The translations under genes and the position numbers were made by a program. A stretch of DNA of 63,466 nucleotides, filler included, from Chrysochromulina tobinii (taxonomy: Eukaryota): the NCBI GenBank assembly GCA_001275005.1. It is 4 parts of 4 records of this genome, joined end to end, with 100 filler letters (N's around TTAATTAATTAA, not from the genome) between each part and the next. Parts side by side here need not be neighbours in the genome. Positions count along the whole stretch, not along the records: positions 11,599 to 27,843 come from JWZX01000314.1; 3 more parts are not named here. The stretch is one strand, 5' to 3'. How positions within the stretch are numbered: position 1 is the stretch's first letter; every line of letters starts with the position of its first letter. Under the pieces are notes generated by a model. It was not told the origin of the DNA and made no database searches. It worked only from the letters and a program-made list of their open reading frames with translations. This document shows positions 4,271 to 58,402 of this stretch, in pieces.

Positions 4271-4531
4271 CCGTACGCACGCCGGTCCGGTGTCTTGGGT
4301 GTCGAATTACAACCATTGGCTGTGAATTTCGTCGTCTAAGGTTACATTGTACTTCACAGGTAGTCCGTTCGCACTCATAAGGCTATTTTTGGTAAATCAG
4401 CCTAACATCAACATTACATGTATAACGTGCCAAAGCCCCGAGAGGTGCCCTCATTCACACCACTTTTTGGTAAATCTCCTTGCGCAATCGAGCACCATGA
4501 AGCTGAGGTTCGGCACGAAGGTTCGCATCGC

Positions 4532-7733: not shown

Positions 7734-10700
7734 TCACTGCACCTTCTTCGTGCGCAACCGCTTCTTCAGAACCGCCGCGCGAAGCTCGTTTGCCACTCTC
7801 ACGACTGGAGTGCCTTTCGCATGCACCAAATCAACCGCCTTCGAATTCCGCAAGATCTTGATATCTTCTTCGCTCGAGCCCGTCATGATCGATATGACGC
7901 CTCCGAAGCCCTGCTCACGCATGTGCATCGCCAAATCCGAGCCGAGCAGCAGCCGATTCGCCCCGATCTCCGAGTCCATCCCGGCCTCGATATTCTGGTC
8001 GAGCATCACGAGATCGACCTGTCGGGGGATCGAGCCCTGTGGCAGCGGCGCGAGGACAATCGCATCGTCGACGGTCGTCATCACGTAGCGACCCATCGCC
8101 ACTTCGACGGCGTGAGCTAGCTCGGCAGTGCTCGTCCCAATAGAGCCCGATCTCGTCATATCTGCGCCGAGGCACGTCTCGAAGAGGGCCGTGTGGAAGG
8201 CCTTCATGAGAGGGTCGTCCTCCACGCCTGCCCGCAATCAGGGCGGCACTCATGAGCACGCAATCAGGGCGGCACTCATGAGCATGCGATCAAGGAGGCA
8301 ATCCGCCATACCGAGGCAGACGATGGGCTCGCTGCTGCTGCTATGTGCCACCTCGGGGCCCATCTCCAAAGCGGAGGGAGCATCGAGATATGAGGCCTTG
8401 TCAGTGCTGTCACGCCGGCGCATCGAGACACTCTGATGGCGGCGCGCGTGCGAGGACGCCTCGTCGCCCTCATCAAGATGATGCGCCTCCTCCGCCGCAT
8501 CACTCTTGGACGCCGCCGCACTGCTGGCCCTGCTGAGCAGCCTGCCTGCAGAGCGGCTGTGGAAGCTGCCCTCTCGTTTGAAACTGCTCTCTGAGGAACT
8601 CGTCTCGGACCTCGGATCTCGGATCTCCACAGGGAGGATCAGATGAAAAATGGTGCGGTGCCCGCCCGCGTCGTCAAGTGCCGTCGCGAGCCACGCGCGG
8701 CCATGGGCCGCGTGGACCGCCTTGCGCACCGTGTCGAGGCCGATCCCATCGCTCGTTGTCGAGGCGGTATGCGTGCGGTAGCCCGGCTCAAACGCCAAGT
8801 TGCACTGCTCTGGGGTCAAGCATTCCGTACCTGTGGGGAGAGGGTCGGGGCGCCGTGATGAGTACTTGCACTTGCATGCAGCGCGTGCAACTCTCCTTCT
8901 ACGCACCGACGCGATTCGGGTTCTCGACCGAGAGATGAAGCATCGCCCCGCGGCTCGAGCTCGTGATCTCCCCGATCTCCCCGATCTCAACGTTCGCCCT
9001 TACCGTGATCGTGGCGCCAGGCTCGCGGTACCTGATGAGGGAGGCAATCAATTGTGTCATCAGAGGTCATCAGTGGGTATCAGAGGGCAGCAGAAGGTCA
9101 TCAGACGTACTTGTACGCATTGGAGAGCGCCTCGTCGAGCGACAGCCGTGCAATCGAAACGTCGAAGCGGACGGTGGCTGGCGCATCGACGCCGATGACC
9201 GCGATCATAGATCCGATGCGAGGCCTCAACAGCTGCTGCATCTCGTCACCATCTCGTATCTCGTGACCATCTCGTGGACATCTCGTGATGCGAGGCCTCA
9301 ACGGCGGCAGTATTTCGTCACCATGGTCACCATGACCGTTGGGATGGTTGCCGCGGCTGCCGATGGAGACGCCGCTGGTGCTGTGGCTTTCGTTGGAGTT
9401 GTCGATGTGGTGACCGTCGCCGTTGCGCTCTGCCTCGTCGTTTGGGGGCAGAACCGCGTCGTGTTCGGCCACGGAGCGCATGAACTCGTGCAAGTCGCAG
9501 TCCATGCGCACGGTGCGGTAGGTCCCGTTCTCCAGATCGATGAAGAGCTGCGGACGAAGCACCCATTAGATTAGAGTAGAGCCCAGCAGAGTAGATTCGA
9601 CTCATTAGAGAGTGGTTACATGGATTAGAGTAGAGTTGACGCAGGTGGAGGTCATCAAGGAGCGCTCCGCGGCAATCACACCTGCCGACGATGTAACCAC
9701 TCTACTGCTTGGTCGAGCAGCGCAATCGCCTCGTGCAACAGCGTGGCCTGATGATCGGTGACCGGTCTGAGACTCGTGGCCAGCTCGATATTCATACGGG
9801 CCGATCCGCACTTGCCCTTGAAGACGTGATTGAGGCGCGAGTCGGCGGCGCGCGTGGCACGCGCGTGCTCGAGCTTGAGACTGTTCGCGAAGGCTTCCTG
9901 TGCTAGTCTTGCTGCCTCTTCCTCTGCGCGCCGTGCTCGCTCTTCGACTGTCGCGGCGTTGAGTCGATCGAGATGCTGCGAGATGAGGATCGATCGGATC
10001 GTGCGTCCAAGGAGCTCACCTGCCAAATACGGTGGTCATCAGACGCACTCAGACGAACGCGAATCGTACTTGAGAGACTCGTTCGAGTCGGAGCTCACCT
10101 AGACACGTGCAAGCGGCGATGAGGAGGATCTCACTGGTCGTAGAAAGGGCCGTCCACCGCGATAGACACGCGTACCCCACGATGAACACGCCGCACACCT
10201 GCCAAATATGGCTCTCGAACATGCCCGAATAGTGCTCGTGGACGCCCGACACGACCTTCAGTAGGGCGAGGAGGAAGGGAACCTGAGGGTGAGCCTGGAA
10301 ATCCCTTCGAGTGTCCTCATGGACGAGCATTACGATGTTGATGGCCGCCCATGCGCACCCCACGCAGAAGACGTACAGGCGCGAGTAGATCAGCACGGCG
10401 CGCTTCTGGTCCGCGAACGGGCGTAGCCAGATGCGCCCAGCCAACATCACGGAACCGAGACACGTGCCAGCGACACACACAAGGTTCGGACCCAGGATGA
10501 GGATCTCGAGGCTGTGGATGGAGGCCAACACAAACCACCACGTTATCGTGTACGGGCACGCACGCTGGAAGCGGTCCGCGCGGTAATCCTCCTGTAGAAT
10601 TGGCTCGATGTCCACCGAGAAGAGAGACGCGAGCGCGCCGCCCGGCTTGGCGCCGGCGGAAGACTTGACCTGACGCCGGAAGCGGTGCTCGATCGCGATG

Positions 10701-11498: not shown

Positions 11499-11598
11499 NN
11501 NNNNNNNNNNNNNNNNNNNNNNNNNNNNNNNNNNNNNNNNNNTTAATTAATTAANNNNNNNNNNNNNNNNNNNNNNNNNNNNNNNNNNNNNNNNNNNN
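11499..11598. other. Artificial contig linker (44 N, TTAATTAATTAA, 44 N)
   Basis: Identical 100-nt spacer occurs three times in the window. Confidence 0.97.
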
Positions 11599-12051
11599 CC
11601 TTGAAAATCAGCTCTTTAGACCTTTCGACCCTGATCAGGGGTCACCGACCCTGAACAGGGTTTGCACCGATTTCCCGGATCCTCTCGTTCATTTTGCGGT
11701 GTGAACGGAACTTTTTGAGAGACGTCCTGTGTTAACTTCAAACTCTCAACTAGACGGGACACAAATGACGATTTGAAATGAGCCGCGCGGCGCGTCCGTG
11801 TCTGTTTAGCTCCGTAGTTTTACCCCAGCATAGGAAATTCCTACGTTTTACTTCGCACTATCCACTAACTACGCACTGGGCTCACTGGAGTGCGTGGAGA
11901 GTGCCCGCGGTACCAACTACCATCTGTCTCGCGTCCGACGTCTCTGCTCTGAGAAGCCGAGGAGTTTATCGCGCGCCCCTGCCTCTTATGTGCATGCAAT
12001 CGGCATCGAAAAAAAGCACCCCTAAAATGGCAAGAAGGCTCTTGGCCGAAC

Positions 12052-18240: not shown

Positions 18241-21200
18241 ATGGCGACCACTGCCGGCGACCTTTGCATGTATGACCGAGCGTACAAGAACGACCGCCAC
18301 CTCGCCGGCGACCGCAACGCGGCGCGTGAGCGCGCGCGCTGTTGTCACACCACTGGCGTCGTGTGCCCTCTCGCTGGCACGACGACGGAGCTAACGCTGC
18401 ACATCCCCGTGTACCATGGCCGGCCTCCGTTGCCGCATCGCCCGCCTGTGGTGCGCGTGCGCGTGCTGCACGGCGGCGACAGCACGTCGGCGCCCGAGTT
18501 CGACGAGTCACAAAACATGATCCGTACGGTCCCGACCATGCGCCTGCACTACGGACCGATTCAGCGTGCGGGCCCCTTTCTGCTCGCAATCGAGGTGGAC
18601 GGAGCGCACGTCATGGGTTCGCCGTTTTCGCTGCACTGTCGACCTGGCGCGGCCGTCGCCAACAAATCCTCCTTTGACGCGGTGGCGTACACCGTGCGCG
18701 CGGGCGAGCCGGCGCATCTGATGTTCACCTGCCGTGACAGTTTTGGAAACCGGTGCGACGAAGGCGGCGCGCTTGTGACGGTGCACAATGCGAGCCCGGA
18801 GGACGATCCGGACGCTCTGGGTGCGCCGGCGCCGCCCGACACGCCCACCCTCGGCCCCCAGGAGGGGGCCCTTCATGTCCTCGATCGTGGCGACGGCTCG
18901 TACGCAGCCGTCGTTACGCACCGACGCTCAGGCATGCGCTGCTTCCACGGGTGCGTGAATGGCATCGCGGTGGCGCGGCCGGTGCGCCTGCACGTGCAGC
19001 CGGCGCCGCTCCACGCGCCGAACTGCGTGCCGTACGGCGACGCTTTCGAGTGCTTCGTCGCCGCCGGCGTGCCCGCCATCCTCAAGCTACAGGCACGAGA
19101 CATGTACGGCAACGTGATCGAGAGCGGTGGACGGAATTGGGAGGCAAAGCTCGAGTACCGCGAGCGCGAGGGCGGGATGTGGTGCGAGGCCGAACGGGCG
19201 CCCAGCGTGCGCGACGGCGCGGGCGCGGGCGAGTACGCGGTGAGCCTGTGTGCGCCGCGTGCCGGCCCAGCGCGCGTGTTGCTCCGGCCGCTCCTTAACG
19301 GGATCCCTGTGCCGGAGCTCTTTACACTCGCGCTGATGGCGTGTCCGTCGCCCGAGGATCCGGGCTCGTTTCGGCTGGCGGGCGCGGCGCTGCGTGTCGC
19401 CGTCGCAGGTGAGCCTGCCGAGCTGAGGCTGCGCCCTCGCTGATGACCGATGATGACCGCTGATGACCACTGATGACCGCTGATGACCGCTGATTGCACT
19501 CCTCATCAGGTGAGCCTGCGGAGCTGACGCTGCGCCCTCGCTGATGACCGCTGATGACCGTTGATTGCACTCCTCATCAGGTGAGCCTGCGGAGCTGACG
19601 CTGCGCCCTCGCTCGTTTGGGAAAGCTCGCACGCTGGCCGCACGCACCTTTGAAGGGTTGCGCGCTTGGCTCAGCATTGGCAGCGCGCCCCATGGCGATG
19701 GGACGCTCGACACGACGCGCACGACGCCCGACACGACGCGCACGACGGTCCCGTTGCGCATCTCACGCCGCTTGGCTGGCGAGGGCACCGTCCTCGTGGA
19801 TGGGGAGGCGGATGAGTTTGGGACGAGATGCGATCTCCTGCCGGATGAGTTTGGGACGAGATGTGATCTCCTGCCGGATGAGTTTGGGAGCTCGTTGCCA
19901 GCGGGCTCGGCGGCGCGTGAGGGCGTCGTCGTGAGCGGCGGCGGTGGCAACGGCGCCTCTGCCGCGAAGGCTGCCTATGCTGCCTGCGCCGCTTTCTCCG
20001 ATGTAGCCGTCGGCGGCAGCGTGAGCGGCGGCAAGCACGCGGTACACTCATGGCATGGCAGCTCCGGCGCCGATGACCGCTGATGACCGCTGATGACCGC
20101 TGATGACCACTGATGACCACTGATTGCACTCCTCATCAGGTACACTCATGGCATGGCAGCTCCGGCGCCGATCGGCTCCTCTGCAGCGACGAGGACACGT
20201 TTGATAGGGAGGAGTGGGCGCTGCACTTCACTTGTACGCAGGCCACACGCAGCGCCGCTGTGCACGTGGAACTCTTTGGAACGCCCATCGGCGGCGCACC
20301 GTATGCATGCACGGTGCTGCCCGGCACGACGCTCCCCTCGAAGACGACGGTGAGCTACTCGAGCGTCCTAATGACCGCTGATGACCGCTGATGACCGCTG
20401 ATGACCGCTGATGACCGTTGATTGCACTCCTCATCAGGTGAGCTACTCGAGCGCCCACGTGCGCACGGGCCAGCCGCTTCGGGTCTTCATCCAGGCGAGA
20501 GACCGGCATGGTAACGCCCGATGGAGCGGGGGCGACACCGTGCATGCAATGAGTACCGTTGATTACCGTTGATTACCGTTGATTGCACTCCTCATCAGGT
20601 AACGCCCGATGGAGCGGGGGCGACACGGTGCGTGTGCTGCTGCTTCGCAAAGGGGGGCATTCCCCCGTAACGACCAACGGCGCGGGCGCTCAGCACGGCG
20701 CGGGCGCTGGTGCTGTCAGCCCGCGGATGGGCGACCGTAAGGGTGCCCAGCACGACGCCCTCGCGGACAGGAACGCGAGCACCTCGCCCTCCGCCACCTC
20801 GCCCCCAGCCACCTCGCCCCCCGCTTCGTCGCGCGCTGCTAGTCCGACGTGGATGGCGCGTCGGGCGCAATGCTACGCCGAGCGCATCTCCGAGGCGACA
20901 GAACGCGACGCACAGACCATCTTTGCCCTCAGTACTTCGACCGCGGCCACGGGAGAGTTGGCGGCGCTGGCGGCGGCGACCAGCGCGGCGGCCAGCGCGG
21001 CGGCGGCCGAGGCTGCAGACGAGCGTGCGGCCATTGTGGCCGCCGAACGTGAGCTCTCCAAGCGCTGATGACCGCTGATGACCGCTGATGACCGCTGATG
21101 ACCGCTGATGACCGCTGATGACCGCTGATGACCGCTGATGACCGCTGATGACCGCTGATTGCACTCATCATCAGGTGAGCTCTCCATCTTCCCAGGCGAC

Positions 21201-24200
21201 CGCGCCGCGCAGGATCTCCTGATCAAGGCTGCCACCAAGCGCCTCGCAGACATCGTGCCCAGCCCGGCGCCACCCTCGACGGACGAGTTGCGAAACAAGG
21301 CAGGCAGTCCGAGGTCCCGTTCGTCCGTTGGCTCGTCATGGGTGCCGCCCGTGCAGAGCTTTGCACGGGCGCTGCCGGCCTGCCTGCCACGACCCGCCGC
21401 AGCAGCAGGAGATCGTATCTCGGCAGGAGATCGTATCTCGCGACCACTCTCGCCCGCAGCGACAGCAGCGGTCATTGCGTCCGCCATTTCGATGGCTGCG
21501 GCGGGGGGCGGCGGCACTGCAGGGACCGAGGGACAAGATGAGCGCCAAGATGAGCGCTCCTTGGTCGAGGAAATGAGCATGACCGACCGGAGTATCGAGT
21601 TACTTGAGCGACGTGGCGCTTCGACCTCGGGGTGCGAGGTCATCGACCACAACGACGGCACTTACACTTGCAATGCGGTGGTACTCGCCACCGGCCGCTT
21701 CACTCTCCACGTCTTCCTCAACGAGCGGCCCGCAGCGCGCCCTTGGCCCTTCACAGTGCGCCCGGGCATGCCAGATGCGGCCACGTCGGAGCTCAAGGTG
21801 TGATGGCCCCTGATGGCCCCTGATGACCCCTGATGGCCCCTGATGACCCCTGATGGCCCCTGATGGCCCCTGATGGCCTCTGATTGCGACCGTCATTGAG
21901 ATGCGGCCACGTCGGAGCTCAAGATCTGTCAAACGCTCGGCACTGTCGGCCGATGGATGCCGCATGCAAGTGCTCACCACGGCGCGCGTCCTACTCACAG
22001 GTCGGTCAAACGCTCGGCACTATCGGCCGATGGATGCCGCTCTGGGTGCTCGCTCGTGACGCGCATGGCAACCTGACGAACGGCGCAGGGCGTGAGCTGC
22101 CGGGGGTGGGGGACGGCGGCGATCACGGCGGCGATGGCGGCGACGGCGGCGATGGCGGCATCGAGGTACACGTCATCGGCGGGGAGGGGCGCGCGATGCA
22201 GGTGCACCGGATCGCCGAGGGTCGTTACGAGTCTGCAGTGGTAGCTATGAACGCATGTCTCCTCAGGTGAGGCCCACTGATGACTACTGATGACCACTGA
22301 TGACCGCTGATGACCGCTGGTGGCCATGAACGCATGTCTCCTCAGGGTGGCGGTGACCATCGGCGGTGTGAACCTGGCTGGCTCCCCGTTCGAGATTCAT
22401 GTGAATGCCGGCAAGACCTCCGCGTGTGCTTCACACGCCGAGGGCAGCGGCTGGCAACGGCGCGTCCTCGTGGGCGACCCGCTCGAGTTCACCATCCACG
22501 CATACGACGCGCAGGGCAACCCGCAGAACCAGCCCACGGACCAATTTGTCGTGACTCTTACCGCGCGCTCGCGCGACGGCTACTCCATCCAGCTCCGCCC
22601 GACCTACCTAGGCAGTGGGGCCACACTCGTCAAGTATGAGGTGTGAAGGGCGGTGTGAAGGGCGCTCCGATCACCCCTTCGCCCCCTGCCCACTCTCGTT
22701 CACACCACGCCATCCGCCATACCGTCGCCCATCCCCTTCACAGGTGCTCCAGCCAGGCTCCTATGTCCTCTCAGTCACCCTCAAAGGCTACCACATCAAG
22801 GAGAGCCCGTTCAACATCGTCGCCGGATCCGGCTTCTTCTCCGACGTCCTCGCTGGGCTCCCCGCCCCCCCTCCCCCCTGGATCCCCACAGGGGAGGGGT
22901 ACGCTTCCCCCCGTCCGACGTGCACGGGCGCCCTAAGTGGCACCCGTGCCACCGCCGCCCCCGCCCCCCCGCGCCTTTCGCGTAACCTCGCGACACCAGC
23001 AGTCCCGTTCGCTCGGGACGGCGCGCCGTCGCCACGCCCTGCTTCCCCACGCCCTGCACCTCCACGCCCTGCCCCGGCACGTCCGGACTCGCCACGCCCA
23101 GCCTCGCCACGCCCTGCCTTAGACGCCTCCAGCTCCTCGCCGCGCTCGCCCGACCGCGTGCTGCAGCTCGCCTCAGCGCAGCTCGAGGCGATCCGCCGGC
23201 GCGCGGCACTCAACGGCCTTGGCATGCCGCCGCCCGTCGAGGCGCTCGTCGAGGCGCTCGACGCAGCGCTCGGCCCGGCGCCACTCGACCGGCCTACCGG
23301 TAACGGTCCGCAAAGGCCTGGCGCAACGGCCGTACCCTCGCCCTTGCGACAGTTTGAGGCCTCGGTGGCCGCGGCGGGTGCGCAGATGTCCCTCGCTGAT
23401 GACCGCTGATGACCGCTGATGACCGCTGATGACCGCTGATGACCACTGATGACCGCTGATGACTGCTGATGACCGTTGATTGCACTCCTCATCAGGTGCG
23501 CAGATGTCCCTCGCTCGTGATCAATCTCGCGTGGCGAGCTCGGTGCTGCCTTCCGCGCGCAGTGCCTCTTTCGGGTCGATCGATCGGGCCTCGGCGATAT
23601 TACTGCTTCGAGACATTAAGATGCCGCCACGCCTTGCAGCAAGTCCCTCGTTTGGATCGCTCTCGGTGGGTGGGCTCAACCCATACCGGCGCTGCATGCA
23701 AGTGCTCACCACGGCGCCTCGCCTCCCTCCCCACAGGTGGATGGGCTCAACCCGACGCGCAGCTCGGTCCGGATGGATGGACACGCGTGGTGCGCGGAGC
23801 TACAGAGCTCCCGCGCGGAGCTACAGAGCTCCCGCGCGGAGCTACAGAGCTCCCGCGCGGAGCTACAGAGCTCCCGCGCGGAGCTACAGAGCGACCGGAG
23901 CCGCCGAGAGCCCGCGCGATGCCCGACACGGCGCGGCGAGCCTTACGGCGCCGTCAAGGAGGCCAGTCCGGGCGCCGTGTCGGGCGCCACCACGGCCGCC
24001 GGCGTCGTGTCCGCGCACCGGGCGCTCGACACGGCGCTCGACACGATGAAGACCCTCGCTCGCGCCAGGAGCACGGTGGACCCTCGCGCGTCGTCGAGCG
24101 CCGTCGTGAGCGCGGGTGTGCGAGGCAGCGGCGGCGCCGCCACCGGCAGGGGCGGTGGGGGCTTGAAAGCAGGCCGAGGCGATGCGCGCGCGATACCCCG

Positions 24201-24243
24201 CCCTGCTTGGGGCGTTGGCTACTCTGGAGGCCGCGCGCAGTAG
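18241..24243 (+). CDS. Filamin/ABP280-type Ig-repeat protein with about 10 introns
   Basis: VDGAHVMGSPF, DRGDGSYAAV, DHNDGTYTC, GVNLAGSPFEIHV, GYHIKESPFNIV. Frames join after removing introns 19409-19580, 20042-20139, 20350-20437, 20511-20598, 21049-21174, 21798-22000, 22267-22345, 22641-22743, 23378-23495 and 23666-23736. Confidence 0.75.
19409..23495 (+). repeat. Dispersed intronic cassette A: (ctgatgaccg)n + gattgcactcctcatcAG
   Basis: Copies end at 19509, 19580, 20139, 20437, 20598, 21174 and 23495, each directly followed by GT. Confidence 0.9.
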
Positions 24244-25710: not shown

Positions 25711-27545
25711 ATGTCAAGCCCACGATTAGCCCACCCCTCACGCGCAAAGCCTCAAGGCATGCCTGCGACGGGCGCCGACGGTGTCGCGCGGTACGGCAAT
25801 GATGAGACTCGCCCTCCCACCCGCCTTTCAGGCGGCCTGTTCAACCAGCTGTGGGCACTGCAAGGGCTCGTGATGGACGCATATGAGAGCAAACTGCCGC
25901 TCACACTCCCATCTTGGGATTCCCACCTTTTCCCAGCCTCAATGGGGCTTGAAAAGGACGCCCGATTCAAGCGGCCGTTGCAACTCCCGTTTGCCGCACT
26001 GTGGCGAAAGGACGTCTTCACGAACACCCTTCGCAAGCACGGCGTCGTCGCAGTGGCCAGCAACGACTCATGGCAGGCGGCCAACGCAGTGGCGAGCACA
26101 AGCACGGCAGCAATGAGACGATACATGAGGTACATGATTCGGCGTGCCAACGGTACAGAGAACGCCCACCCTCTCGAGGACGTCGTGTACCGCGCGCTCT
26201 TGCCAGCCCCGCACCTCGCGCGCCGCGTCGAGCGGCTACTTCGTCGGCTCCGTCTCATCTCTGCGGGCTCAACCTTTGGCTGCTTGCATGCGCGCGTCGA
26301 GCGGGACATGCAGCGCTGGTGGTATCACGTAGCCAAGGCGCGCCCTCCGACGATGCGCCAGATCCTCGATGCGATCGGCTCCGAGGCGCGCATGCAACGC
26401 TCGCGCGCCATCTACGTGTGCGTCGGCTCCGATCTCAAGCCGCGAGATCGTGAGGTGCTCGGGAATCGGACCAGTTGGGGCGCAGCTCTCTTGCGCCGGC
26501 CGACGCTGCTGGCTGAGGACGCGGAAGACGAGGCGGCGGCTCGCGCTGGCAGCTCGGAGCACTCTAAGGAGGACGATGGCCGGTACGTGCGCGTCGGCTC
26601 CTCCCAAAGGCGCGCGAGCTGCACGCAAGTGCTCACCACGGCGCCGATCCTCTCTTCCCCACAGGTTCTACTCCATCCCTGGGAGCGGTGTGGTGCATGC
26701 AAGTGCTCACCACGGCGCGTGTCCTCTCTTCCCCACAGGTACTCCATCCCTGGGAGCGGGGTGGTGCATGCAAGTGCTCACCACGGCGCCGATCCTCTCT
26801 TCCCCACAGGTTCTACTCCATCCCTGGGAGCGGTGTGGTGCATGCAAGTGCTCACCACGGCGCGTGTCCTCTCTTCCCCACAGGTACTCCATCCCTGGGA
26901 GCGGGGTGGTGCGCCGAAAGATGGGCGCGCACGACACGGCGCTCTGGTCCGAATGGCTGCGCGAGGTGCTGCGCGAGGGAGATGGCGGCCATCATCAGAC
27001 TGATGACGAGGATCATCAACGTGTAGACCCCACCACCGTGTCCACGATCGATTCGCGAGGGAGATGGCGGCCATCATCAGACTGATGACGAGGATCATCA
27101 ACGTGACCCCACCACCGTGTCCACGATCGATTCGACGAATATCTCGAGATCGAGAAACATCTCGAGATCGAGATCGAGATCGAGTGAGGAGCTCGGCCCC
27201 ATCGACGATCCGCCTCGTCACGTGCCGCTCACGTACATTGAGAAGGCGATCCTCGATTTCAGCGTCTGCCGCCATGCCGCGTGGTTTGCCGGCTGGAGCT
27301 CCTCCTCATTCTCCGCCTCGATGGCCTATCTGCGCCATCTCGATCACAACCAGGGATCGTACGCGTACTGCGCGAAGGGCTCGCCCTTCTCGCGCACGCC
27401 GCCGCAGCAGCAGCAACGGAAGCAGCAACTGCAGCATCCCCAGACGGTAGCAAGCACTGGCCACTCATCCCCGGCGGTAGTGCTGCAGCATGAGCACTCG
27501 CGGTTCGTGCGCCTGCACACGTGTAGGACGACGGGCTTGGGCTAG
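25711..27545 (+). CDS. O-fucosyltransferase-like GT-B glycosyltransferase
   Basis: GGLFNQL, GCLHARVERD, AILDFSVCRHAAWFAGWSSSSFS; intron 26583-26883; a second frame change near 26966-27080. Confidence 0.65.
26583..26883 (+). repeat. Tandem array of four intronic cassette-B units (tgcatgcaagtgctcaccacggcgc...ccccacAG)
   Basis: Units 26583-26664, 26665-26738, 26739-26809 and 26810-26883; the same cassette occurs at about 8832-8880 (-), 21962-22000 and 23693-23736. Confidence 0.9.
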
Positions 27546-27843: not shown

Positions 27844-27943
27844 NNNNNNNNNNNNNNNNNNNNNNNNNNNNNNNNNNNNNNNNNNNNTTAATTAATTAAN
27901 NNNNNNNNNNNNNNNNNNNNNNNNNNNNNNNNNNNNNNNNNNN
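27844..27943. other. Artificial contig linker
   Basis: 44 N + TTAATTAATTAA + 44 N. Confidence 0.97.
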
Positions 27944-36549: not shown

Positions 36550-38752
36550 ATGGACCTCGCCGTCTTCCTCCTCGAAGGTCCGTTGGTTTCCCTTCCCGCA
36601 CCATCGGCAGCCGATCCATCATCGCCGGAGCACACCTCCATCTCGATGCCTACCTCCATCAGCGCTGCATGGCGGGCATTCGTGACGCCATCTGCCGCGC
36701 CGCGAGCTCCGCCGTCCAAGCGCATTTGCGACCGCCGCACCGCGGCCTTGCCTGCTTCTGCGTTCACAGACAAGGAGGTCCACGTGCGCTTTCGGTACCC
36801 AGCGACAGCAGACCCGCCGCCGCGCCTGGCCGCGTTTGCATTTCCCGAGTCCATCGATGAGGAGCTCCTCGACCAGCCGCGCGACGTGTGCTTCTGCTTG
36901 ACGCTCTCGGACGGCAGCCGCGTGCACGGCTCGGCTCTCCAGATGTGTGATCCGGATCCGGCCGCGTCGGACCGTGTTACCGTGCGCGCGCTCGTGCTGC
37001 TCTCGAAGTGGCCTTGTTACGAGGCCTGGAAGACGCTGCTGCACACGATCTTCTCGCGGCGCGATGAGCTCTGGCCAGCGGACGCGCCGCTCTCGCCGAG
37101 CGGGCGGGCGCGCTTTCCAGAGGCCTCTTTGGACGCCTCGTCGCCAAGCCTGGTGACACTACTCGAGCAGACGGCGTCGGTGCTTCGTCAGTCGGGCCAG
37201 GAGCTCGGCTGGATGACGACGCACCCATTATGGCTCCCGACGCCTCTCGCGCCGCTCTTCCGCTCGCTCCGGTGGCAGCCGGCCGAAGCGGCGTACCTGC
37301 TCACCTGCGTACTCACCGACCAGCGAGTGCTGCTTCACTCTGAGGATGCGCACCGCCTCTACTGCAGCGCGTGCGCGCTCAAGGCGCTGATCACGCCGCT
37401 TGAGACCTCGACGATTTTCATACCGCTGCTGCCGCAGCACCTCATGTCGGCCGACGAGGCGGGCACGCTCCTGTGCGACTGCACGAGACCATACCTCATC
37501 GGCTGCTCGACGGCGCTCCTGAGCTCGATGGGACGATCGCCTTCCTCCGAGGTCGTCCTTGTGGACCTCGATCGCGGCCAGGTGAGTCTCGTCAATTGCC
37601 TCTGAGGCCTCTGATTGCCACTGATGACCACTGATGGATCTCCTCAATCCGCGCGGCCTCGATCGCGGCCAGGTGCGCCGCGTACCCGACACGGCGTGGT
37701 TCGACGCGAAGCGGCCGCCCTTTGCGTCGCTCGTCGCCGAGCTCAGCCAGTGCATGGGCAGTTGTGGCCTACCCAAGGGCAGCCCAGGCGGCACCACCCA
37801 ATTCAGAGGGTTGCGCGCGCAGGCGGCGTGTGCTCGCTTTATCGTGGATCTCCTCAATCCTCGCGACGGATTCCTTGGACAGTCTACCGCGGCGGCGGAC
37901 ATGGACGCGCTCTCGCGCCTCGAGCTGCTTCAACGGCTGGCTGACGAGGCCGTGGCGCGCGCGCAGCAGGATAAGACACGCATCGAGGCCGAAGCGCTCG
38001 GAGTGCTGCGTAGCGCAATCCATCTAAGCGTCGGAGCCATGCTTGCAGGCGTGTGCGCCGACGCCGCCGAACGCCTCGCCACGGCGAGCGGCGGAAGCAG
38101 CGGACCCGCTCCGTGGCATGCGGGTCGGCCGATGCTAGTCGACGCGCTCATCGCCGACACAGCGGACGCACGCGAACCGGACTGCTGCGGCGCGCTGGCA
38201 CAGATCTACGCCGCCCAACCATTTCGGGAGTGGTGGGGAGAGCCGGCACGCTCCCGCTCGCGCGCGCCAGAGCGCTTGCAATGGCTTCACTTCCGCGCGA
38301 AGCACATCGACCTGATCGAATACCTTCGTGAAAACCACAAGTCGCTTAAGGTGCTCGAGCGCTCCGTCGAAGAGCGACTCTACGCTGTCTGGGGCGACGA
38401 GGCAGAGATGGAGGCGGACGCGCCCGACGCGCCCGACGCGCCCGACGCCGAGGCTGATGATGTGGCTGATGATGGGGAAGTGGCCGAGGCCGAGACGGCT
38501 CAGGCGGCCCTGGATGAGGCTAAGGCGGCTTTGGCCGAGGCCGAGGCAGCCTTGGTCGCGGCCGAGACGGCTCAGGCGACCGATGCCGAGACGGACGAGG
38601 CCAAGGCGGAGGAAGCCAAGGCGGACGATGCACCGACGCTGCCTGCAGACGATGCCGACACATCGGCCGTGCAGGGTGGCGCTTTGATGGAGCCGCCGCA
38701 GCCGGCTGCCTCACTGCCACCGCTTCCATTGCAGACGGAGGTGGAGATCTGA
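36550..38752 (+). CDS. DENN-domain protein (putative Rab GEF); intron 37582-37672
   Basis: FAFPES, CFCLTLSDGSRVHG, ALVLLSKWP, RVLLHS, FIPLLP, PYLIG, VVLVDLDRG. Confidence 0.8.
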
Positions 38753-46993: not shown

Positions 46994-47093
46994 NNNNNNN
47001 NNNNNNNNNNNNNNNNNNNNNNNNNNNNNNNNNNNNNTTAATTAATTAANNNNNNNNNNNNNNNNNNNNNNNNNNNNNNNNNNNNNNNNNNNN
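46994..47093. other. Artificial contig linker
   Basis: 44 N + TTAATTAATTAA + 44 N. Confidence 0.97.
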
Positions 47094-48124: not shown

Positions 48125-50175
48125 CTAACGCAAAAAGGCCATCGAGCGAAGCAAGTTGTGGACTTTGGCCTCGTCGCCTCGCGCCGTCGTAAGCGCTACA
48201 GGCCGTTGGCTGCTCACAACCTCTTGTGAAGCATCCCAGCCCGCCCTGATCATGCACTCTGCCTGCTCAAACGGCAAGCTTATTGGGATGACAAACGGAG
48301 GCCGCACGCCTCGCTCCGTCCCCTGGCCTTCGGATGAGAGGGTGTGGTCGAATCGGAGGCGCTTGGCGCTCTCCGACATCGACGAGATTGACGACATCGA
48401 CGAGATTGACGAGATTGACGAGGTCGAGAGGGTGTGGTCGAATCGGAGTCGCTTGGCGCTCGTGGGCGCCGTAGTGGGCGACGGCGCATCGGCGACACGC
48501 CGCTTGCCATGTGCTGTGCCCAGAGGCGCGGACAGAGGCTCGTTTCGGGGCGTGGCCTCGGAGCCCGAGGAGCCGTCTCGTGCCCACTCGGAAAGGTCTG
48601 GTCGCTGAAAGGCAGTACGACTGCTGCTCGCTCCACCGGCGCTCTGCTGCCCCTGCGCCTCTTCCTCCTTCTCCTCCTCCTCGGCGCAGGTGCCACAGGG
48701 CGCGTCGCCCTCGCTGCCGGCGTCTGGCCCAGGAGAGCGCCCAGGAGAGCGCCCACCGTCGAGGGAGCGGTGGAGAGAGAGGTGTAGGTTGTGCTCCAGC
48801 GTGCCACGCATCACGAGCTGCTCCACGTGCACCGGCCCCGTCGCACCCATCCGGAAAGCGCGCGAGATCACCTGAGATCGAGATTGAGATCGAGATCGAG
48901 AGTGTCATCAGGGACGCCATCAGGAAGGCCATCAGGGAAGCCATCAGGGAAGCCATCCGGCAAGCGTGCGAGATCACCTGAGATCGAGATTGTGATCGAG
49001 AGTGTCATCAGGGAAGCCATCAGGGAAGCCATCCGGCAAGCGCGCGCGCTTCTCTCCTGCTGCTCAACGGCCGGGTCCCAGCACTGGTCCACCAAGAAGA
49101 GGTGCGTGAGCATCGAGAGGTCCAACCCATGCGACCCATCCCGAGTGAGCAAGAGCACGAAGCAGTCGACCTGAGGAGCTCGAGCAGGGGAAAAGGTCTC
49201 GTTAGGGCTCATCAGGGCTCATCAGGGCTCATCAGGGCCCATCAGGGCTCATCAGGGCTCATCAGGGCTCATCAGGGCTCATCAGGGCTCATCAGGGCTC
49301 ATCAGGGCTCATCAGGGCTCATCAGTGGCGCTCACCTCGCGCGAGCTCCAGGGACGATCACCCAGCCGATGTCCACACTTTTGGAAGCTCACCACGCGCC
49401 CCGGCACCCAGACGCCGAGCGACGGGGCGCTGTGTTGGGCGTTCGGGGCGCGCAGGCGCGTCTCGGCAATGGTTCCCACAGTCCAGACGGTGCCCGCCAC
49501 GAAGGTGGGCTGCCCGGGCACCCGGGCATCCTCCTCATTGACGCACACCTCGAAGGTAGTCGCCCCGGCGGGCAGCTGCATCCCGACCGGAGCATGCTCG
49601 GCACCCACCTGCAACACCAGATGCTTGCCGTAGCAGCGCACCTCGGGGAATTCGACCTCGCGCCCAGATTCGACCTCGCGCCCACCGGCGTGATGCGCGC
49701 GCGGCGGGCAGCGCTCGCACCGCCAGTACTGCACACGCCGCGTCCGGAATTTGGTCAGCTCGGAGTTACGGTACTTGCCCCAGAACTGTGCGACTGCATC
49801 GTCGCCGAAGCGCAGGTACAGAAAGTGCCCTAGCTGGTCGAGCATGCGCCGGCTCTCCGCATAGACGGCGACGCGCACCGGCCGGCCGTCGTAACTGCCC
49901 TGGTCACCGCCAGTGCCCGAGGGGCATCGCCCCTGCTTGAGTGCATGCACCGCTTCCCGCTCAATTCGTCGAAGAGAGGCAATCGCCTCGATAATGTGCG
50001 CCGCTTTGGTATGGGTTTGGGCTTGGTGGTGACAATTGGGTTTCGTTAACAATTGGGGTTGGGCTTGGTGGGGAACGACGCTGCCGCTGCCGCCGCTGCC
50101 GCCGCTGCCGCCGCCGTTGCTGCCGCTGCCGCTGCTGCTGCTGCCAACGGCAGCATTGTCGCTTTTGCTGCCACT

Positions 50176-50209
<34 letters not shown>

Positions 50210-52959
50210 TTGGCGTCGTCTGCAAAGGCGACGCGGCGCGATGAAGACGGCAGCGCGGTCGGCGCCACCTTGGCTGCGGCCCGCGCCTCTTCCCTCCGCT
50301 GCAGCTCGTATGCGTGAGCGAGAGCCCGCGCCTCGGCCTCTCGTAATGTCTCGCTCCACTGCAGGTCGATCATCAGAGGTCATCAGTGGTCATCAGAGGT
50401 CATCAGAGGTCATCAGAGGTCATCAGAGGTCATCAGAGGTCATCAGAGGTCATCAGAGGTCATCAGAGGTCATCAGTGGTCATCAGTAGTCATCACCTGC
50501 AAGTCAAACCCGGGCTGCACGTAAGCGAACGCGTCGAGTGGATGGGCTTGCGTGAGCACGCGCCGCTCGCCGTGGCTGCACACGACGTCGTCGCAGCGCG
50601 GGCACTTGAGGTATTCGAGCTCGGGGAGGGCCTCAGCGCATACGGGGCACGCGCATAGCTCGCGAACACCCTCGGCGTGACGGGCGCCTCCCCGAAGAGA
50701 GGGGAAGTCGTCGTGACGGGCGGCCTGCTCCCCGCCCTCCTCCGCAGCTGCGCTGCTAGCTGCACTCGCCGAGTCAACACACTCGGGGCAGCATAGGTGC
50801 CCGCACATGGGCATCAAGAGCTGGAGCAGCAAAGGCAGGCCACACTTATCGCAGGGCGTCGCGTCACCCGACTGGGCAGCCGTCATGAAGGCGCACGCCC
50901 GCTCGACGACCCGCGAGGGAGCCCGATATCGCTCACTGAGCCACGCGCAGCACTCTCGAAAGTAGTGAGGCGAGAGGGTAGCGAGCTGCTTGCCACCGCC
51001 GTTACTCGCCAGCCGTACATTCTCAACAGCCTTGCGCGCCGATTTGAGGTTGTTGTGATGGAGCAGTGAGACGTCCGCGCCAGCGCCCGTCACGGCGCCT
51101 TGCAGGCCGGTGAGCACGAGGTTCGCCTGGAAGAAGGCCACGAGCGAATTGTACGCGAGACGTTCCGCGGCAGAGCACTCGAGGAAGCGTGTCGAGCGGA
51201 TGGGGTGGGGCACTGCGATCTTGCGCTTGAGATTGCGCACCATGATCGGCGCCAGGAAGGCAAGCGCCGCGTCCTCCGCGCCCTCGGCATGGGCGAGCAG
51301 CCGGCGCGCCACGCCTTTCCACAGGCTGTGCTTCGGGTGGCGCAGGAAGCTTAGCAGCCCACCCAGGGTCGCACAACCGTCCGCATCGCTCGTCTCCTTC
51401 GCCGGCGTGCCACTCATCACCCAGCGCCTCTCGACTGAGAGCTCTTGCAGGAGCACCTAGAGAGGGGTCGGGCAAATGGCAGTGGCAGTTCGTGGGAATC
51501 AGCGGCAATCAGATGGCAATCAGATGGCAATCAGATGGCCATGAGTGGCGATCAGCGGCAATTCGTGGTAATCAAGAGGCCATCAAGAGGCGATCATGAG
51601 GCGATCATGAGGCGATCAAGAACACCTTGGTGTGAGTGATCGCGCCGCCACCCAGTGAGCAATCACCGAGATCACAGTGAGTAATCACAGAGAGTAATCA
51701 CAGAGAGTAATCACAGAGAGTAATCACCTCACCTTGGTGTGAGTGATCGCGCCGCCACCCAGTGAGTGGCCCTCGTCGCAAATCAGGCGCACCCACGCCA
51801 CCTCGCAGAGCACCGACGGCCGGCCATCGCCCCTGTGCGCGTGCCGGTGCTCCTGGGAGAGTCGCTCGGAGGAGGTCACCACCACAGCCGCCGCCGCAAG
51901 CTCTGATGCCGAGTACAGATCACGCAGCTCCGCGGGCCCGTGATCGTCGACGATCACGGGGCCGCCAAGGGCCCCCGTGTGCACGTGCCACTCGAGTTGC
52001 TCACGCCAGTGCGGTACCAGCGGCCGCGGCACCACCAACAGCGTTGCGCACGAGCGTAGCGGTCCGCCGACAGAAGAACCAGCTGACCGGCTCTTGCTAA
52101 CTCTCCCTTGGATACCTAATTTGGATCCCTTGCCTGATTTGGATCCCTTGGGACCATGCGACTCAAGGACCGTCTCCAGCACGTCCTGCAGCTCCTTGGC
52201 GACCGAGGCGAGCTCGGCCGCCGCGGCGGGCCCGTGTGGGTGCGAGTGGCTGGCCACGTGGCTTGACCAGTACGTCAGCGCCGCTTGTGGAACTGCGCGG
52301 ACAGCCTCGTCAAAGGCCGAGCGCGAGGGGAAGGCGCCGATGGCTGTATCGCTCTTGAGCGCGGCAAAGTCGGGCGGCGGCGTGGGCACGAGGGCGAGAT
52401 AGCCCTCGAGCTCGGCCGCCGCCTGTTCACCCGAGCTGCCAAAGAGAGCAAATCCTCTCGGGCATCGCGTGCGCACGTCCTTGAGAATGGCGTACGCGAG
52501 CTCGCGCTTGAACGGAAGGGCGAGCGAGGCCCACTCCTCGTCCGCCGCCTCGGCGCGAGCCTGCGCCACGTTGGCTGGCGCGCGCGATCGCAGCCCTGCC
52601 GTCTTGCAGAGGAGCGAGAGAATTGTCACCGTCTTGCCGGTGCCGGGCTCGTCTGCCAAGATGCCGCCGCGTTGACAGCTCGCCTCAGCGGCCATCATAA
52701 AGGCAAGCGAAGCTCGCTGGTGCGGAAACAGCGTGAGGCGTAAGCCGATGTAGGAGCATGCGGCGAGGGCGCGTAGTGAGGAGCAAGTTGAGCCGAGTGC
52801 CGCGAGATCTTGACCGAGCAAGCGCGCCACGATGAATTCGAGCACATCGTGGTCAAGGGTGGCGCCCGTCGGAGTGGTCCAACCGACGCGCTGCGTGGGT
52901 ACTGGGCGATCGATGTCGCCGAGGCGCTCGAAGAGTGCGGCCAGGCGACCCGATGACAT
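48125..52959 (-). CDS. F-box-like + SNF2 helicase + RING protein; exons 52959-51733, 51456-50497, 50358-49336, 49170-49057, 48871-48125
   Basis: LDHDVLEFIVARL..QDLAALGSTCSSLR; GGILADEPGTGKT; RLICDEGH; RWVMSGTP; CDKC..CGHLCCPEC..CPVC; SHGLDL; WDPAVEQQ|VISRAFRMG. Confidence 0.85.
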
Positions 52960-53327: not shown

Positions 53328-56300
53328 ATGCCTCCGCGCGCTACCAGCGCCACCACGCCACGCCGCCGCCGCGGGCCCTCGCCACCCTCATCCGCACGCC
53401 GGCCGGCTGGCGGCGGTGGTCGTGGTGGCGCGGCAGGCCGAGGTGGAGCTGCAGGCCGCGGCAGCGGCTCCACCTCCGGTGCACGGACGGCTGCTGCCCC
53501 GGAACGCATGGAGGCACTGGTGCGCGAGTTCGTCGAGCTTTGCGACCGACCGGAGCCGCGTGCGGAGGTGGCGCGCCGTGTCCGTGAGGCGCCACGTGAG
53601 CGCAGGCTCGATCTGCTCGGGATGGCGCTCATGGGGCTGCCCGCAGGCCTGGGCAAGCAGCTGCCGATGCTCTCGGCGCTGCTTGTCAACACGAACTCGA
53701 TCAGGACGCTGCCCGACAGCGTGGGCGAGCTGCGCGCGCTCGAGAGGCTCAATGCTCGCTTCAACGTGCTCGGCGCGCTGCCGGCAACGATCGGGCTCCT
53801 CGGACAGCTTCTGAGCCTCGACGTGAGAAGACACGTCGAGCTGCCACTGACGGCTACTGATGGCCACTGATGGCCACTGATTGATCGCCACTGATCGCCA
53901 CTGACCGCCACTGATCGCCACTGATCGCCACCGACGTCCCTGATGGCCTTGCATGCAGGTGAGCAACAACGAGCTCGTCGAGCTGCCCGAGGCACTCGGC
54001 CAGCTGCCGCTGCTGCACACGCTGGACGTGCATGAGAATCAGTTGACGAGTCTGCCTGCGAGTCTGATCCAGCTGCGCAAGCTGAGTCTCCTGGACGCGC
54101 ACCGGAATCGACTTGGCGCGCTGCCGGAGCGGCTTGGCGAGCTTCCCGCGCTCACGTCGCTCGACATCTCGACCAATCTCCTTCGTGAGCTGCCTCTTGA
54201 TTGCCTCTTGATTGCCTCTTTGATTGCCTCTTGATCGCCTCTTGATCGCCTCTTGATCGCCTCTTGATGTATCTTGATTGTATCTTGGTTTATATATTGA
54301 TTGCCTCTTGATCGCCTCTTGATTATCTTGATTGCCATTGTCCCCCCACTAATGGCCGTATCGCTCCGTGACTTGACTTGACTTGACTTGACTTGAGTTG
54401 TTTTGACTTGACTTGACTTGACTTGACTTGACTTGAGTTGAGTTGAGTTGAGTTGTTTTGACTTGACTTGACTTGACGTGACGTGACTATGGATTCGCTC
54501 GATGAGGACGACTATGCACTGTTTGCGTTGCATGCAGGTGAGTTGCCCGACTCGATAGGCCACCTGAAGACGCTGATTACGTTCGACGTGCATGCCAACC
54601 AGCTGGTCGCACTCTGCGACTCGATTGGGCAGCTCGCATGCCTACAGAAGCTGCATGCGTCGGCGAATCGTCTGGTGAGCCTGCCCTCGATTGCGGGTAT
54701 GGTCTCCTTGCGCCATCTGGACATTTCCGAGAACGTTCTGGCGGAGCTGCCCACCGTGACGAACGAGACGGCGCTGTCGTTACGCGAGCTGCTGTGGAAG
54801 GGCAACCCGCTCCAGCGCCCGCCCGTCTCGGTTGCCAACCAGGTGAGCGACGAGCTCGAGGCCGCTTGATGGCCTCTGATTGCCTCCCTACTTAGATTGA
54901 TTGCCTCCCTCATCAGGGACTCGAGGCCGTGCGTCGCTACTTTGACGAACTCTTTGATTGCCTCCCTTCTTAGATTGATTGCCTCCCTCATCAGGGACTC
55001 GAGGCCGTGCGTCGCTACTTTGACGAACTTGAGCGCGCGGGAGCTACAATCTCGTGGTCCGCACGGCTTGTGCTGCTCGGCGACGGGATGGCGGGCAAGA
55101 CGAGCTTGCAGCGCGGCCTGTTCTATGGCACTCCGAAGCCCACGCACGTCGATGCGCGTACGATCCAGGTGCGATCTCCCTTGATTGCCTTTGATCGTAC
55201 TTGATTGCCAGCCCACTTGATCGTACTTGATTGCCAGCCCACGAATGAGCTTCGTCGCGTCGACTCGCGTGCGACCCAGCTCGACATCACGACGCTCACG
55301 CTGCGTGCTGCCTTTGGGGGCGCCCGACACGGCGTCGGTGGAGGAAAGGCGAGCGCGGAGGGCGCCCGACACGGCGCCTTCGGAGGGGCGAGCGTGGAAC
55401 GCGAGAAGGTCGGCGCCCAACTCGGCGCCAAGGGCGGGGGCGGGCGCAGCGGTGACGGCGTGGGCGGCGGCAGTAGTGCCAACAAAGGCGTCAGCAGCCA
55501 CGCAGTCGGCAGCAATGGCGCCAGCAATGGCGCCAGCCATGGCGGCAGCCATGGCGGTTACAATGGCACCGGCCACGGCGTTGGCACCAGCCACGGCGTC
55601 AGCGGCACCAGCGGGCAGGCCACTGACGACGCTCGCGACGTCACCATGTCAGTGTGGGATTTGGGAGGACAGATCGCCTATGCCGCCGCGCAGCAGCCTT
55701 ACATTGTGCCTGGGTCTCTGTACATCTTGGCGGTGGCGGCGCCGCGCGCCTCGGTGAGTTGTGATGGATGCTCGCTTCTGATGGCCCCTGATGGCCACTG
55801 ATGACCACTGAGTGCTTCTGAGCGCCTCGATGAGTTGTGATGGATGCTCGCGTTTGACTGTTGGTGGCCTTTGATGGCCACTGAGTGCTTCTGAGCGCCT
55901 CGATGAGTTGTGATGGATGCTCGCGTTTGACTGCTGTTGGTGGCCTTTGATGGCCACTGAGTGCCCCTGAGTGCTTCTGAGCGCCTGTGAGTGCCTCTGG
56001 TGGCAGGACGCTCACTACCCTGACGTCCTCGGCCGATGGCTCGACTACTTGCAAAGCAGCGCACCCGGTGCCGTCGTGCTCCCGGTGCTCACGCAGTGCG
56101 ATAAGCTCCTACCGAAGGCGGTCTCGCCACTGGAGGTGCACCATTTGGAGCGCGTGGTCGAGGAGCAGGCGTCGTGGGTGCGCCGTGCCATCTACTGGCA
56201 TCAGGTGTGCTGATTGCCTCCCTAATTGCATGCAGGCAGGGGTCGTGGGTGCGCCGTGCCATCTACTGGCATCAGGTGATTGCGGCTGATGGCGGCTGAT

Positions 56301-58351: not shown

Positions 58352-58402
<51 letters not shown>

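What the first reader, a model, noticed from the sequence alone, without database searches (positions are those of the whole stretch)
19409..23736. Introns that start with a copy of the next exon and end in a shared acceptor cassette: apparent ongoing intron gain
Seen in sequence: the intron 5' end duplicates the start of the downstream exon, beginning at the GT. Examples are 19409 (32 nt), 20042 (33 nt), 20350 (16 nt), 20511 (28 nt or more), 21049 (12 nt), 23378 (20 nt) and 23666 (17 nt, 1 mismatch). The pattern recurs at 10020-10098 (-, 9 nt), 57840-57922 and 59554-59640. The duplicate is followed by a cassette with a fixed 3' end and variable 5' length (A: (ctgatgaccg)n gattgcactcctcatcAG; B: tgcatgcaagtgctcaccacggcgc..cacAG; C: gcatgctgattgcctccctaattgcatgcAG). 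Splicing restores the coding sequence exactly. Established: typical introner DNA transposons have short fixed TSDs and often TIRs; none is evident here. Inference: acceptor-bearing intron ends are pasted at staggered breaks, by target-primed reverse transcription or templated repair, and the long variable duplication supplies the donor.
Basis: partly seen in the sequence, partly recalled or inferred. Interest (0 to 1): 0.8.

Follow-up and report, generated by a model that had tools for sequence, protein, structure and literature searches.

The report
New introns patched from neighbouring introns
In a haptophyte alga, many spliced introns are bracketed by a 9-40 base copy of the gene's own coding sequence and end like other introns of the same gene, which suggests that new introns likely arise when a DNA break is patched with the end of a nearby intron, a route that published intron-transposon screens would probably miss.

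Summary
Confirmed and wider than reported. The organism groups with Chrysochromulina tobinii. All ten cited introns begin with a copy of the next exon. RNA contigs show exact GT..AG removal for 6 of the 7 cited in 19409-23736. Of 40 catalogued introns, 22 carry a junction copy, 9-40 nt long. Intron ends are shared mostly within a gene (18 of 166 same-gene pairs against 3 of 614). Of 45 cassette-motif hits, 44 are sense inside introns and none lies outside. Orthologs at 41-52% identity lack five of the introns. A sister lineage at about 90-95% has two extra cassette-ended introns. Gain is therefore supported; 'ongoing' is not shown, and one position is shared with a 63% relative. An Emiliania-like contig shows the same anatomy. 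Best reading (0.5): offset breaks repaired with a patch copied from an existing intron end. LINE-driven insertion is the main rival (0.22). This scan noted one such intron elsewhere in this genome (e1-2577349).

The parts
18241..24243 (+). Host gene, filamin/Ig-repeat-like protein, 1618 aa after removal of 10 introns
19409..19580 (+). Intron: two stacked units of (33-nt next-exon copy + cassette A); removed as one 172-nt skip
   Evidence: absent in 5 of 5 distant orthologous proteins, present in sister lineage
20042..20139 (+). Intron: exact 33-nt next-exon copy + cassette A
   Evidence: absent in 4 of 4 orthologs
20350..20437 (+). Intron: 16-nt copy + short filler + cassette A
   Evidence: absent in 2 of 2 orthologs
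20511..20598 (+). Intron: 28-nt exact copy + filler + cassette A variant
   Evidence: absent in 2 of 2 orthologs
21049..21174 (+). Intron: 12-nt copy + cassette A with long 10-nt array
   Evidence: orthologs not alignable here
21798..22000 (+). Compound intron: donor-side array, then a copy of previous-exon end (25 nt) joined to next-exon start (39 nt), then cassette B
   Evidence: absent in 1 of 1 ortholog
22267..22345 (+). Mirror-class intron: array-borne GT donor, ends with 28-nt copy of previous exon end (2 synonymous differences) that supplies the AG
   Evidence: no RNA joint seen
22641..22743 (+). Intron without detectable junction copy
23378..23495 (+). Intron: 20-nt copy + cassette A
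23666..23736 (+). Intron: 17-nt copy (1 mismatch) + filler + cassette B
   Evidence: no RNA joint seen
10020..10098 (-). Intron with 9-nt next-exon copy in a histidine-kinase gene
26583..26883 (+). Intron with own donor and four cassette-B acceptors separated by next-exon copies (stack)
   Evidence: host gene not fully modelled
37582..37672 (+). Mirror-class intron (16-nt previous-exon copy) holding a 16-nt piece identical to exon sequence at 37845
48872..51732 (-). Four introns of a SNF2/RING gene: donor-side duplication (51732-51457), mirror class (50496-50359), array only (49335-49171), acceptor stack with GA start (49056-48872)
53823..59640 (+). Fifteen introns of an LRR-repeat/Roc-like gene, including 57840-57922 and 59554-59640 (next-exon copies), 55169-55279 (mirror), stacks at 54843, 56205, 56804, 57239, 57559; cassette C confined to this gene in the window
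   Evidence: Roc label read from the translation, not from a family search

Best explanation
These introns are real and are spliced out exactly, and each likely arose when a DNA break with ends offset by about 9-40 bases was repaired with a patch likely copied from the end of an existing intron, most often one in the same gene, leaving the offset stretch duplicated on both sides. Shown: the duplication, the shared intron ends, their clustering by gene, exact splicing, and presence in some lineages and absence in others. Inferred: offset nicks, templated end-joining, and selection as the filter. A patch that ends in an acceptor survives in an exon only if the duplicated stretch starts with GT, which becomes the donor. 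A patch that starts with a donor survives only if the duplicated stretch ends in AG (mirror class). The same duplication process acting on an existing junction gives the stacks, so it both creates and remodels introns. The template could be the gene's own intron RNA or the same DNA strand; the sense-only, gene-body-only distribution fits either and does not fit random insertion.
For: Copies of 9-40 nt with no fixed length (28 copies). Both polarities occur: 10 of 40 introns start with a next-exon copy, 3 of 40 end with a previous-exon copy, 16 and 6 hold such copies anywhere. Last 20 nt are >=18 identical in 18 of 166 same-gene pairs against 3 of 614 other pairs, permutation p=0.0002; for 8 of 11 introns tested the top-ranked AG-anchored match of real length lies in the same gene. 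44 of 45 motif hits are sense in introns (5.6 kb), 0 in about 16.4 kb between genes. 34 of 40 introns sit in 4 of 19 hand-delimited genes. Joins show 3-4 nt overlaps in 2 of 5 A-type introns tested. One intron holds a 16-nt piece of an exon 173 nt away and one holds an inverted cassette C. Orthologs lack the introns; a sister lineage has extra cassette-B- and A-family-ended introns absent from the window and outgroups. Offset nicks give tandem duplications, and polymerase-theta repair of 3' overhangs gives them with microhomology and occasional in-cis templated inserts (PMC5730883, passages). Direct repeats flank 43% of gained Daphnia introns (PMC3443670, passages).
Against: No break, enzyme or template was observed; no genome was available to look for repair genes or a mobile partner. 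Cassette B occurs in 4 genes on 2 contigs with shared start and end, and a second acceptor variant in 4 genes, and cassette bins reach depth 760-16,700 against about 40 for unique DNA, so long-range spread also happens. Within-gene likeness could come from later gene conversion rather than from the source of insertion. Three of 5 A-type joins showed no overlap. The nearby-template scan gave only 2 hits, one at chance level. Cassette A has a 7-nt inverted match to its own end. One SNF2 position is shared with a 63% relative. 18 of 40 introns show no clear copy.
Confidence: 0.5

Rival explanations
1. Short non-autonomous retroelements, or excised intron RNAs, are inserted by a LINE-type enzyme through target-primed reverse transcription; the fixed AG end is the RNA 3' end and the copy is a target-site duplication.
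For: Variable copy length and a fixed 3' end; sense orientation if the RNA is an intron; high copy number. Non-LTR introners are about 5% of classified families (PMC12130899, passages), and one Pavlovales family is listed as non-LTR, co-opting the 5' and carrying the 3' site (its supplementary file 8).
Against: The mirror class has its fixed end at the donor. No A-rich tail. No copy between genes and one antisense copy in 45. Subtypes cluster by gene. Most copies are 20-40 nt, longer than the 7-20 nt I recall for L1 (recalled, no call). Array length can vary by slippage, so it is weak evidence of 5' truncation.
Confidence: 0.22
2. The positions are old. Local tandem duplication across an acceptor, followed by loss of the original donor unit, replaces the intron's 5' end with exon sequence; gene conversion makes neighbouring intron ends alike. 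No intron is gained.
For: Stacks with locus-specific units show that duplication across junctions happens (19409, 26583, 49056, 54843, 56804). The SNF2 intron at 51732 lies at the same site as an intron in a 63% relative. 19409 is shared with the sister lineage.
Against: Five filamin-gene introns are absent from orthologs, one on a 200-kb contig. Three of four SNF2 introns are absent from all orthologs that reach them (10 of 10, 8 of 8, 6 of 6) and from Emiliania-like DNA. Two cassette-ended introns are private to the sister lineage.
Confidence: 0.13
3. A MITE-like DNA introner with short terminal inverted repeats, whose left end has expanded into the 10-nt array.
For: The last 7 nt of cassette A are the reverse complement of each repeat unit (8 of 40 introns have such a match, 0.3 expected), and in 2 introns the cassette starts on that match. 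Cassette B has shared ends. Other Chrysochromulina genomes have introners with 4-bp duplications (PMC9860276, passages).
Against: Described DNA introners have fixed 3-9 bp duplications; here 9-40 nt. B and C lack such inverted ends. No antisense or intergenic A copies.
Confidence: 0.1
4. Assembly artefact: repeats caused false duplications.
For: Arrays break contigs; no listed DNA contig spans the 19409 stack; raw reads were not seen.
Against: One DNA contig in each of two runs spans both copies at 20511. RNA skips have exactly the predicted lengths, including 172 nt for the stack. Three other assemblies match contig 4 except inside one array. Proteins from other assemblies read into the same copies. 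Copies carry 30 mismatches in 687 nt.
Confidence: 0.02

Closest known systems
Introners that carry one splice site and co-opt the other from the target-site duplication (Symbiodinium; Polarella glacialis classes 4/5 and 6/8/10; Chrysochromulina sp. family in Gozashti 2022 Fig. 2C)
   Same: One site carried, the other taken from duplicated exon sequence; mRNA unchanged; both polarities are described.
   Different: Those have fixed 3-9 bp duplications and often inverted ends. Here the copy is 9-40 nt and variable, the insert is an intron end plus 10-nt array, and subtypes cluster within genes.
Emiliania huxleyi introner family 24 and Pavlovales family 1 (Gozashti 2025, supplementary file 8)
   Same: Haptophyte; listed as co-opting the 5' and carrying the 3' site; family 24 is noted as having 10-bp terminal direct repeats, family 1 is classed non-LTR. 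They may be the visible tip of the same process.
   Different: Families of 5 and 7 copies; only table rows were seen. The same study lists C. tobinii with 0 families (file 7).
[quoted passage not shown]
   Same: New introns flanked by direct repeats, read as filled staggered breaks (review PMC3443670, passages).
   Different: There the repeats are called short and the filler is mostly of unknown or organelle origin. Here the filler is recognisably the end of other introns and brings the splice signal with it.
Tandem genomic duplication of an AGGT-bearing exon segment
   Same: Duplicated exon sequence supplies splice sites; explains the stacks.
   Different: In the cited introns only one site comes from the copy; a foreign, shared cassette lies between the copies.

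Membership tests
Introner (Gozashti 2022 definition) | At least four introns alike from within 10 intronic bases of both ends | tested here: not met
   The first 12-33 nt of each A-type intron are site-specific exon copies; criterion read.
Introner (Gozashti 2022 definition) | Insertion is spliced without changing the mRNA | tested here: met
Introner (Gozashti 2022 definition) | One splice site carried, the other co-opted from a duplication | tested here: met
   Both polarities.
Introner (Gozashti 2022 definition) | Lineage-specific, recently gained positions | tested here: met
   one shared position.
DNA-transposon (MITE-type) introner | Fixed short target-site duplication (3-9 bp) | tested here: not met
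   28 copies of 9-40 nt.
DNA-transposon (MITE-type) introner | Terminal inverted repeats | tested here: inconclusive
   7-nt inverted match in cassette A, at the cassette start in 2 introns; none in B or C.
Non-LTR retroposon (LINE/SINE-type) | Variable-length target-site duplication | tested here: met
Non-LTR retroposon (LINE/SINE-type) | Fixed 3' end with 5' truncation | tested here: inconclusive
   True of A, but array length can slip; B has a shared start; mirror class has the opposite polarity.
Non-LTR retroposon (LINE/SINE-type) | Copies in both orientations and outside genes | tested here: not met
   44 of 45 sense in introns, 0 outside; window only.
Non-LTR retroposon (LINE/SINE-type) | Autonomous reverse-transcriptase partner sharing the 3' end | not testable with these tools
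   No genome held; collection scans for the cassettes found nothing real.
Intron gain by break repair | Direct repeats flanking a novel intron, above background | tested here: met
   with mismatched-pair null.
Intron gain by break repair | Presence/absence polymorphism within a population | tested here: inconclusive
   None among 15 listed of 55 (19409) and 15 of 15 (23666) cluster members; clustering may drop intron-less forms.
Intron gain by break repair | Dependence on an end-joining polymerase | not testable with these tools
   Needs genetics.
Tandem genomic duplication (AGGT) | Both splice sites from the duplicated segment, no foreign insert | tested here: not met
   Shared cassette lies between the copies; exon ends before the cited donors are mostly not AG.

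The most novel reading that the evidence does not exclude
Introns beget introns in cis: in haptophytes a gene's own excised intron RNA serves as the patch for offset breaks in that gene, so intron-bearing genes keep gaining and rebuilding introns without any transposon, and have done so in lineages as far apart as Chrysochromulina and Emiliania.
Probability: 0.3. Interest if true: 0.9.

Novelty: new variant of a known kind. Interest (0 to 1): 0.75.

Why it matters
How a new intron gets working splice signals at once is a long-standing question, and recent surveys credit transposons with most gains. Here the signal appears to come from existing intron ends, largely of the same gene, and the other site from a long duplication. 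The published screen needs likeness at both intron ends, removes pairs in similar proteins and removes low-complexity families, and it lists C. tobinii with none, so this class would likely be invisible to it. The footprint is simple to scan for in any haptophyte genome, the organism is in culture, and sister lineages differ in intron content, so the mechanism can be tested directly.

Tried and rejected
Cassette patterns found nothing in viral contigs (the one hit is a chance match in coding sequence) or prokaryote genomes. The first homolog search for the host gene gave only generic filamin-like proteins and one partial match; orthologs came. Helical periodicity of copy length was tested and rejected (p about 0.45-0.8). 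An excess of synonymous differences between copies, which would point to two alleles as source, was not found: 13 of 30 mismatches are synonymous, as expected from neutral decay plus purifying selection in the exon (p=0.40). Recursive splicing of the 19409 stack was not seen; only the whole 172-nt skip. The joint table was swamped by other cassette loci and was not used. L006-L011 are distant or unrelated; L006 has one intron six codons from a window intron, at a different site. The formin-like gene of L005 was read by eye and by an automated repeat scan but was not modelled intron by intron, so no k-of-n count is given for it. The E. huxleyi genome paper was not held. Literature: ten searches found no description of long variable junction copies with gene-local cassettes; subscription journals are mostly not covered, the bioRxiv supplements were closed, and two supplementary files of PMC12130899 were not searched.
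Full report
Setting. The window is four contigs joined by N linkers, about 62% G+C. Proteins read from it cluster at 90% identity with Chrysochromulina tobinii proteins, and a tafazzin's named relatives are haptophytes. The finding lies in one gene, 18241-24243, a filamin/Ig-repeat-like protein.

Observation. All ten cited copies are present at the stated places. Removing ten introns gives one 1618-aa frame, and keeping any one of them stops it early. I catalogued 40 introns in 10 genes by reading the window and checking that frames open (the gene at 25759-27545 was not fully modelled). Ten of 40 start with a copy of the next exon at score 8 or more; 0.3% of mismatched pairings do. Six RNA runs were laid. 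One search shows GT..AG joints for 19409-19580, 20042-20139, 20350-20437, 21049-21174, 21798-22000, 22641-22743 and 23378-23495. One search gives 20511-20598 from one contig. No joint was seen for 22267-22345 or 23666-23736. Several RNA contigs run into introns, so retention, pre-mRNA or DNA is also present. DNA contigs of two runs match without differences and one spans both copies at 20511; these runs may be the source culture. Three other assemblies match contig 4 except within one array.

Anatomy beyond the finding. (a) Mirror class: 22267, 37582 and 55169 start with a cassette-borne GT and end with a 16-28 nt copy of the previous exon end; 50496 and 9681 are weaker cases. (b) Stacks: repeated units of intron end plus exon start, or exon end plus donor, at 19409, 26583, 45703, 49056, 51732, 54843, 56205, 56804, 57239, 57559. 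(c) 21798 holds a copy of the previous exon end joined to the next exon start. In all, 22 of 40 introns carry a clear copy. The 28 copies measured are 9-40 nt, nine of them 30-35 nt; 13 are exact; 30 mismatches in 687 nt. (d) Intron ends cluster by gene: 18 of 166 same-gene pairs against 3 of 614 other pairs match at 18 or more of the last 20 nt, p=0.0002. The A variant is in six introns of this gene only; cassette C only in the LRR gene. Cassette B and a second acceptor variant each occur in four genes, and cassette depth is far above unique depth, so long-range spread exists too. Loose ends point to another locus with cassette B flanked on both sides by the same sequence. (e) Of 45 motif hits, 44 are sense within introns, one is antisense within an intron, none is outside, although about 16.4 kb lie between genes against 5.6 kb of intron (gene limits set by hand). 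(f) The last 7 nt of cassette A are the reverse complement of each array unit.

Are the positions new? Metagenome protein calls are unspliced: P0012 reads through one intron and into another. A protein that runs through a junction therefore comes from DNA without that intron, unless the contig is a transcript. For the host gene, orthologs at 41-52% identity run through the sites of 19409 (5 of 5, two probably one species), 20042 (4 of 4), 20350 and 20511 (2 of 2) and 21798 (1 of 1). Their contigs are 200 kb, 17 kb, 6.8 kb, 5.1 kb and 1.3 kb. The annotated Prymnesium protein was left out as uninformative; 21049, 23378 and 23666 could not be aligned. For the SNF2 gene, ten orthologs run through three sites (10 of 10, 8 of 8, 6 of 6 that reach them, one annotated protein included), and an Emiliania-like contig has none of the four introns but two others, one starting with an 8-nt next-exon copy. 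Against: the fourth site (51732) has an intron in a 63% relative, which also begins with the residues of the next exon; seven proteins run through it. A sister lineage at about 90-93% identity shares 19409 with a decayed copy, and has an extra intron at aa 288/289: 6 of 6 proteins stop there and 14 of 15 listed start with the translation of cassette B. Four SNF2 pieces at 93-96% start with an A-family acceptor at aa 886. Both sites are empty in the window and the outgroups. This rests on protein translations, not DNA. Among close members no presence/absence difference was seen. Gain since the lineages split is supported; gain today is not shown.

Breadth. The neighbouring formin-like gene on the Emiliania-like contig shows, by reading, a 21-nt next-exon copy at about 6050-6120, previous-exon copies at about 6390-6570 and 9565-9650, stacks, and one acceptor motif repeated within the gene. 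It was not modelled formally. I recall that the E. huxleyi genome paper reports 10-11 bp tandem repeats in introns; the paper was not held.

Mechanism. A stretch duplicated around an insert is what repair of offset nicks leaves. In mouse cells such breaks give tandem duplications, and polymerase-theta repair of 3' overhangs gives them with microhomology and occasional in-cis templated inserts (PMC5730883, passages). If the insert is copied from an intron end, the product is spliced only when the duplicated stretch starts with GT or ends with AG, which yields the two classes. Gene-local sharing, sense-only orientation, concentration of 34 of 40 introns in 4 of 19 genes and a 16-nt piece from a nearby exon fit a template close to the break. 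The break, the enzyme and the template are inferred. Overlaps at the copy/array join were seen in 2 of 5 tested. I give this 0.5; LINE-driven insertion 0.22; remodelling of old introns 0.13 (true for stacks, unlikely for the cited introns); DNA introner 0.1; artefact 0.02.

Comparison. It works like an introner that carries one splice site and co-opts the other (PMC9860276, passages and supplement rows; bioRxiv 10.1101/2020.10.14.339549, parts 1-2 of 4; review PMC11282704, passages). It fails the both-ends likeness rule and the fixed short duplication. PMC12130899 (passages and supplement rows) lists C. tobinii with no family and two small haptophyte families with the same polarity. Break-repair gain and tandem duplication are reviewed in PMC3443670 (passages). 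The C. tobin genome paper mentions introns once, as one per gene on average (PMC4580454, passages). Ten searches found no account of this pattern (listed under Tried and rejected).

Verdict. Real, spliced, and gained at the sites that could be tested. New variant of a known kind. Interest 0.75.

Noticed in passing
window 49056 (-): The last SNF2 intron appears to start with GA, not GT; orthologs support the junction. Not checked in RNA.
   Followed up: partly
window 45884-45886 (-): In-frame TAG in an otherwise intact beta-glucosidase-like reading frame: pseudogene, error or read-through. Family label read from the translation.
   Followed up: no
window 12029-14677 (+) and 15990-17965 (-): Inverted pair of paralogous genes that share one intron position (12370 and 17756) without junction copies.
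   Followed up: partly
window 61500-63466: Degenerate repeat family with a period of about 115-117 nt, interleaved with other units.
   Followed up: no
window 11499-11598, 27845-27944, 46996-47094: N runs with a 12-nt AT-only linker join separate contigs.
   Followed up: yes
window 19409-23736: The 10-nt arrays put stop codons in all three frames in 8 of the 10 introns, so retained introns would truncate the protein; several RNA contigs retain them.
   Followed up: partly
window 56320-56350: Inverted, partly changed copy of cassette C about 100 nt from a sense copy in the same intron.
   Followed up: partly
window 55754-56006 and 21798-22000: Inner duplicated donors read AT instead of GT, as if disabled.
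   Followed up: no
window 26972-27190: 82-nt duplication and short arrays, probably a second intron of the gene at 25759-27545 that I did not resolve.
   Followed up: no
window 1-4300: Region built of several repeated blocks of hundreds of bases, possibly a decayed mobile element.
   Followed up: no
window exons, e.g. 19809-19889, 23792-23892, 14118-14358: Many in-frame tandem repeats with periods of 18, 21 or 33 nt, suggesting a high general rate of small duplications.
   Followed up: partly
L005 5000-10010 (-): Intron-dense formin-like gene on an Emiliania-like contig with junction copies of both classes and a hairpin-like acceptor motif repeated within the gene.
   Followed up: partly
L004 15868-24833: Nine kb beyond the window's contig hold several genes with no obvious introns or cassettes.
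   Followed up: partly
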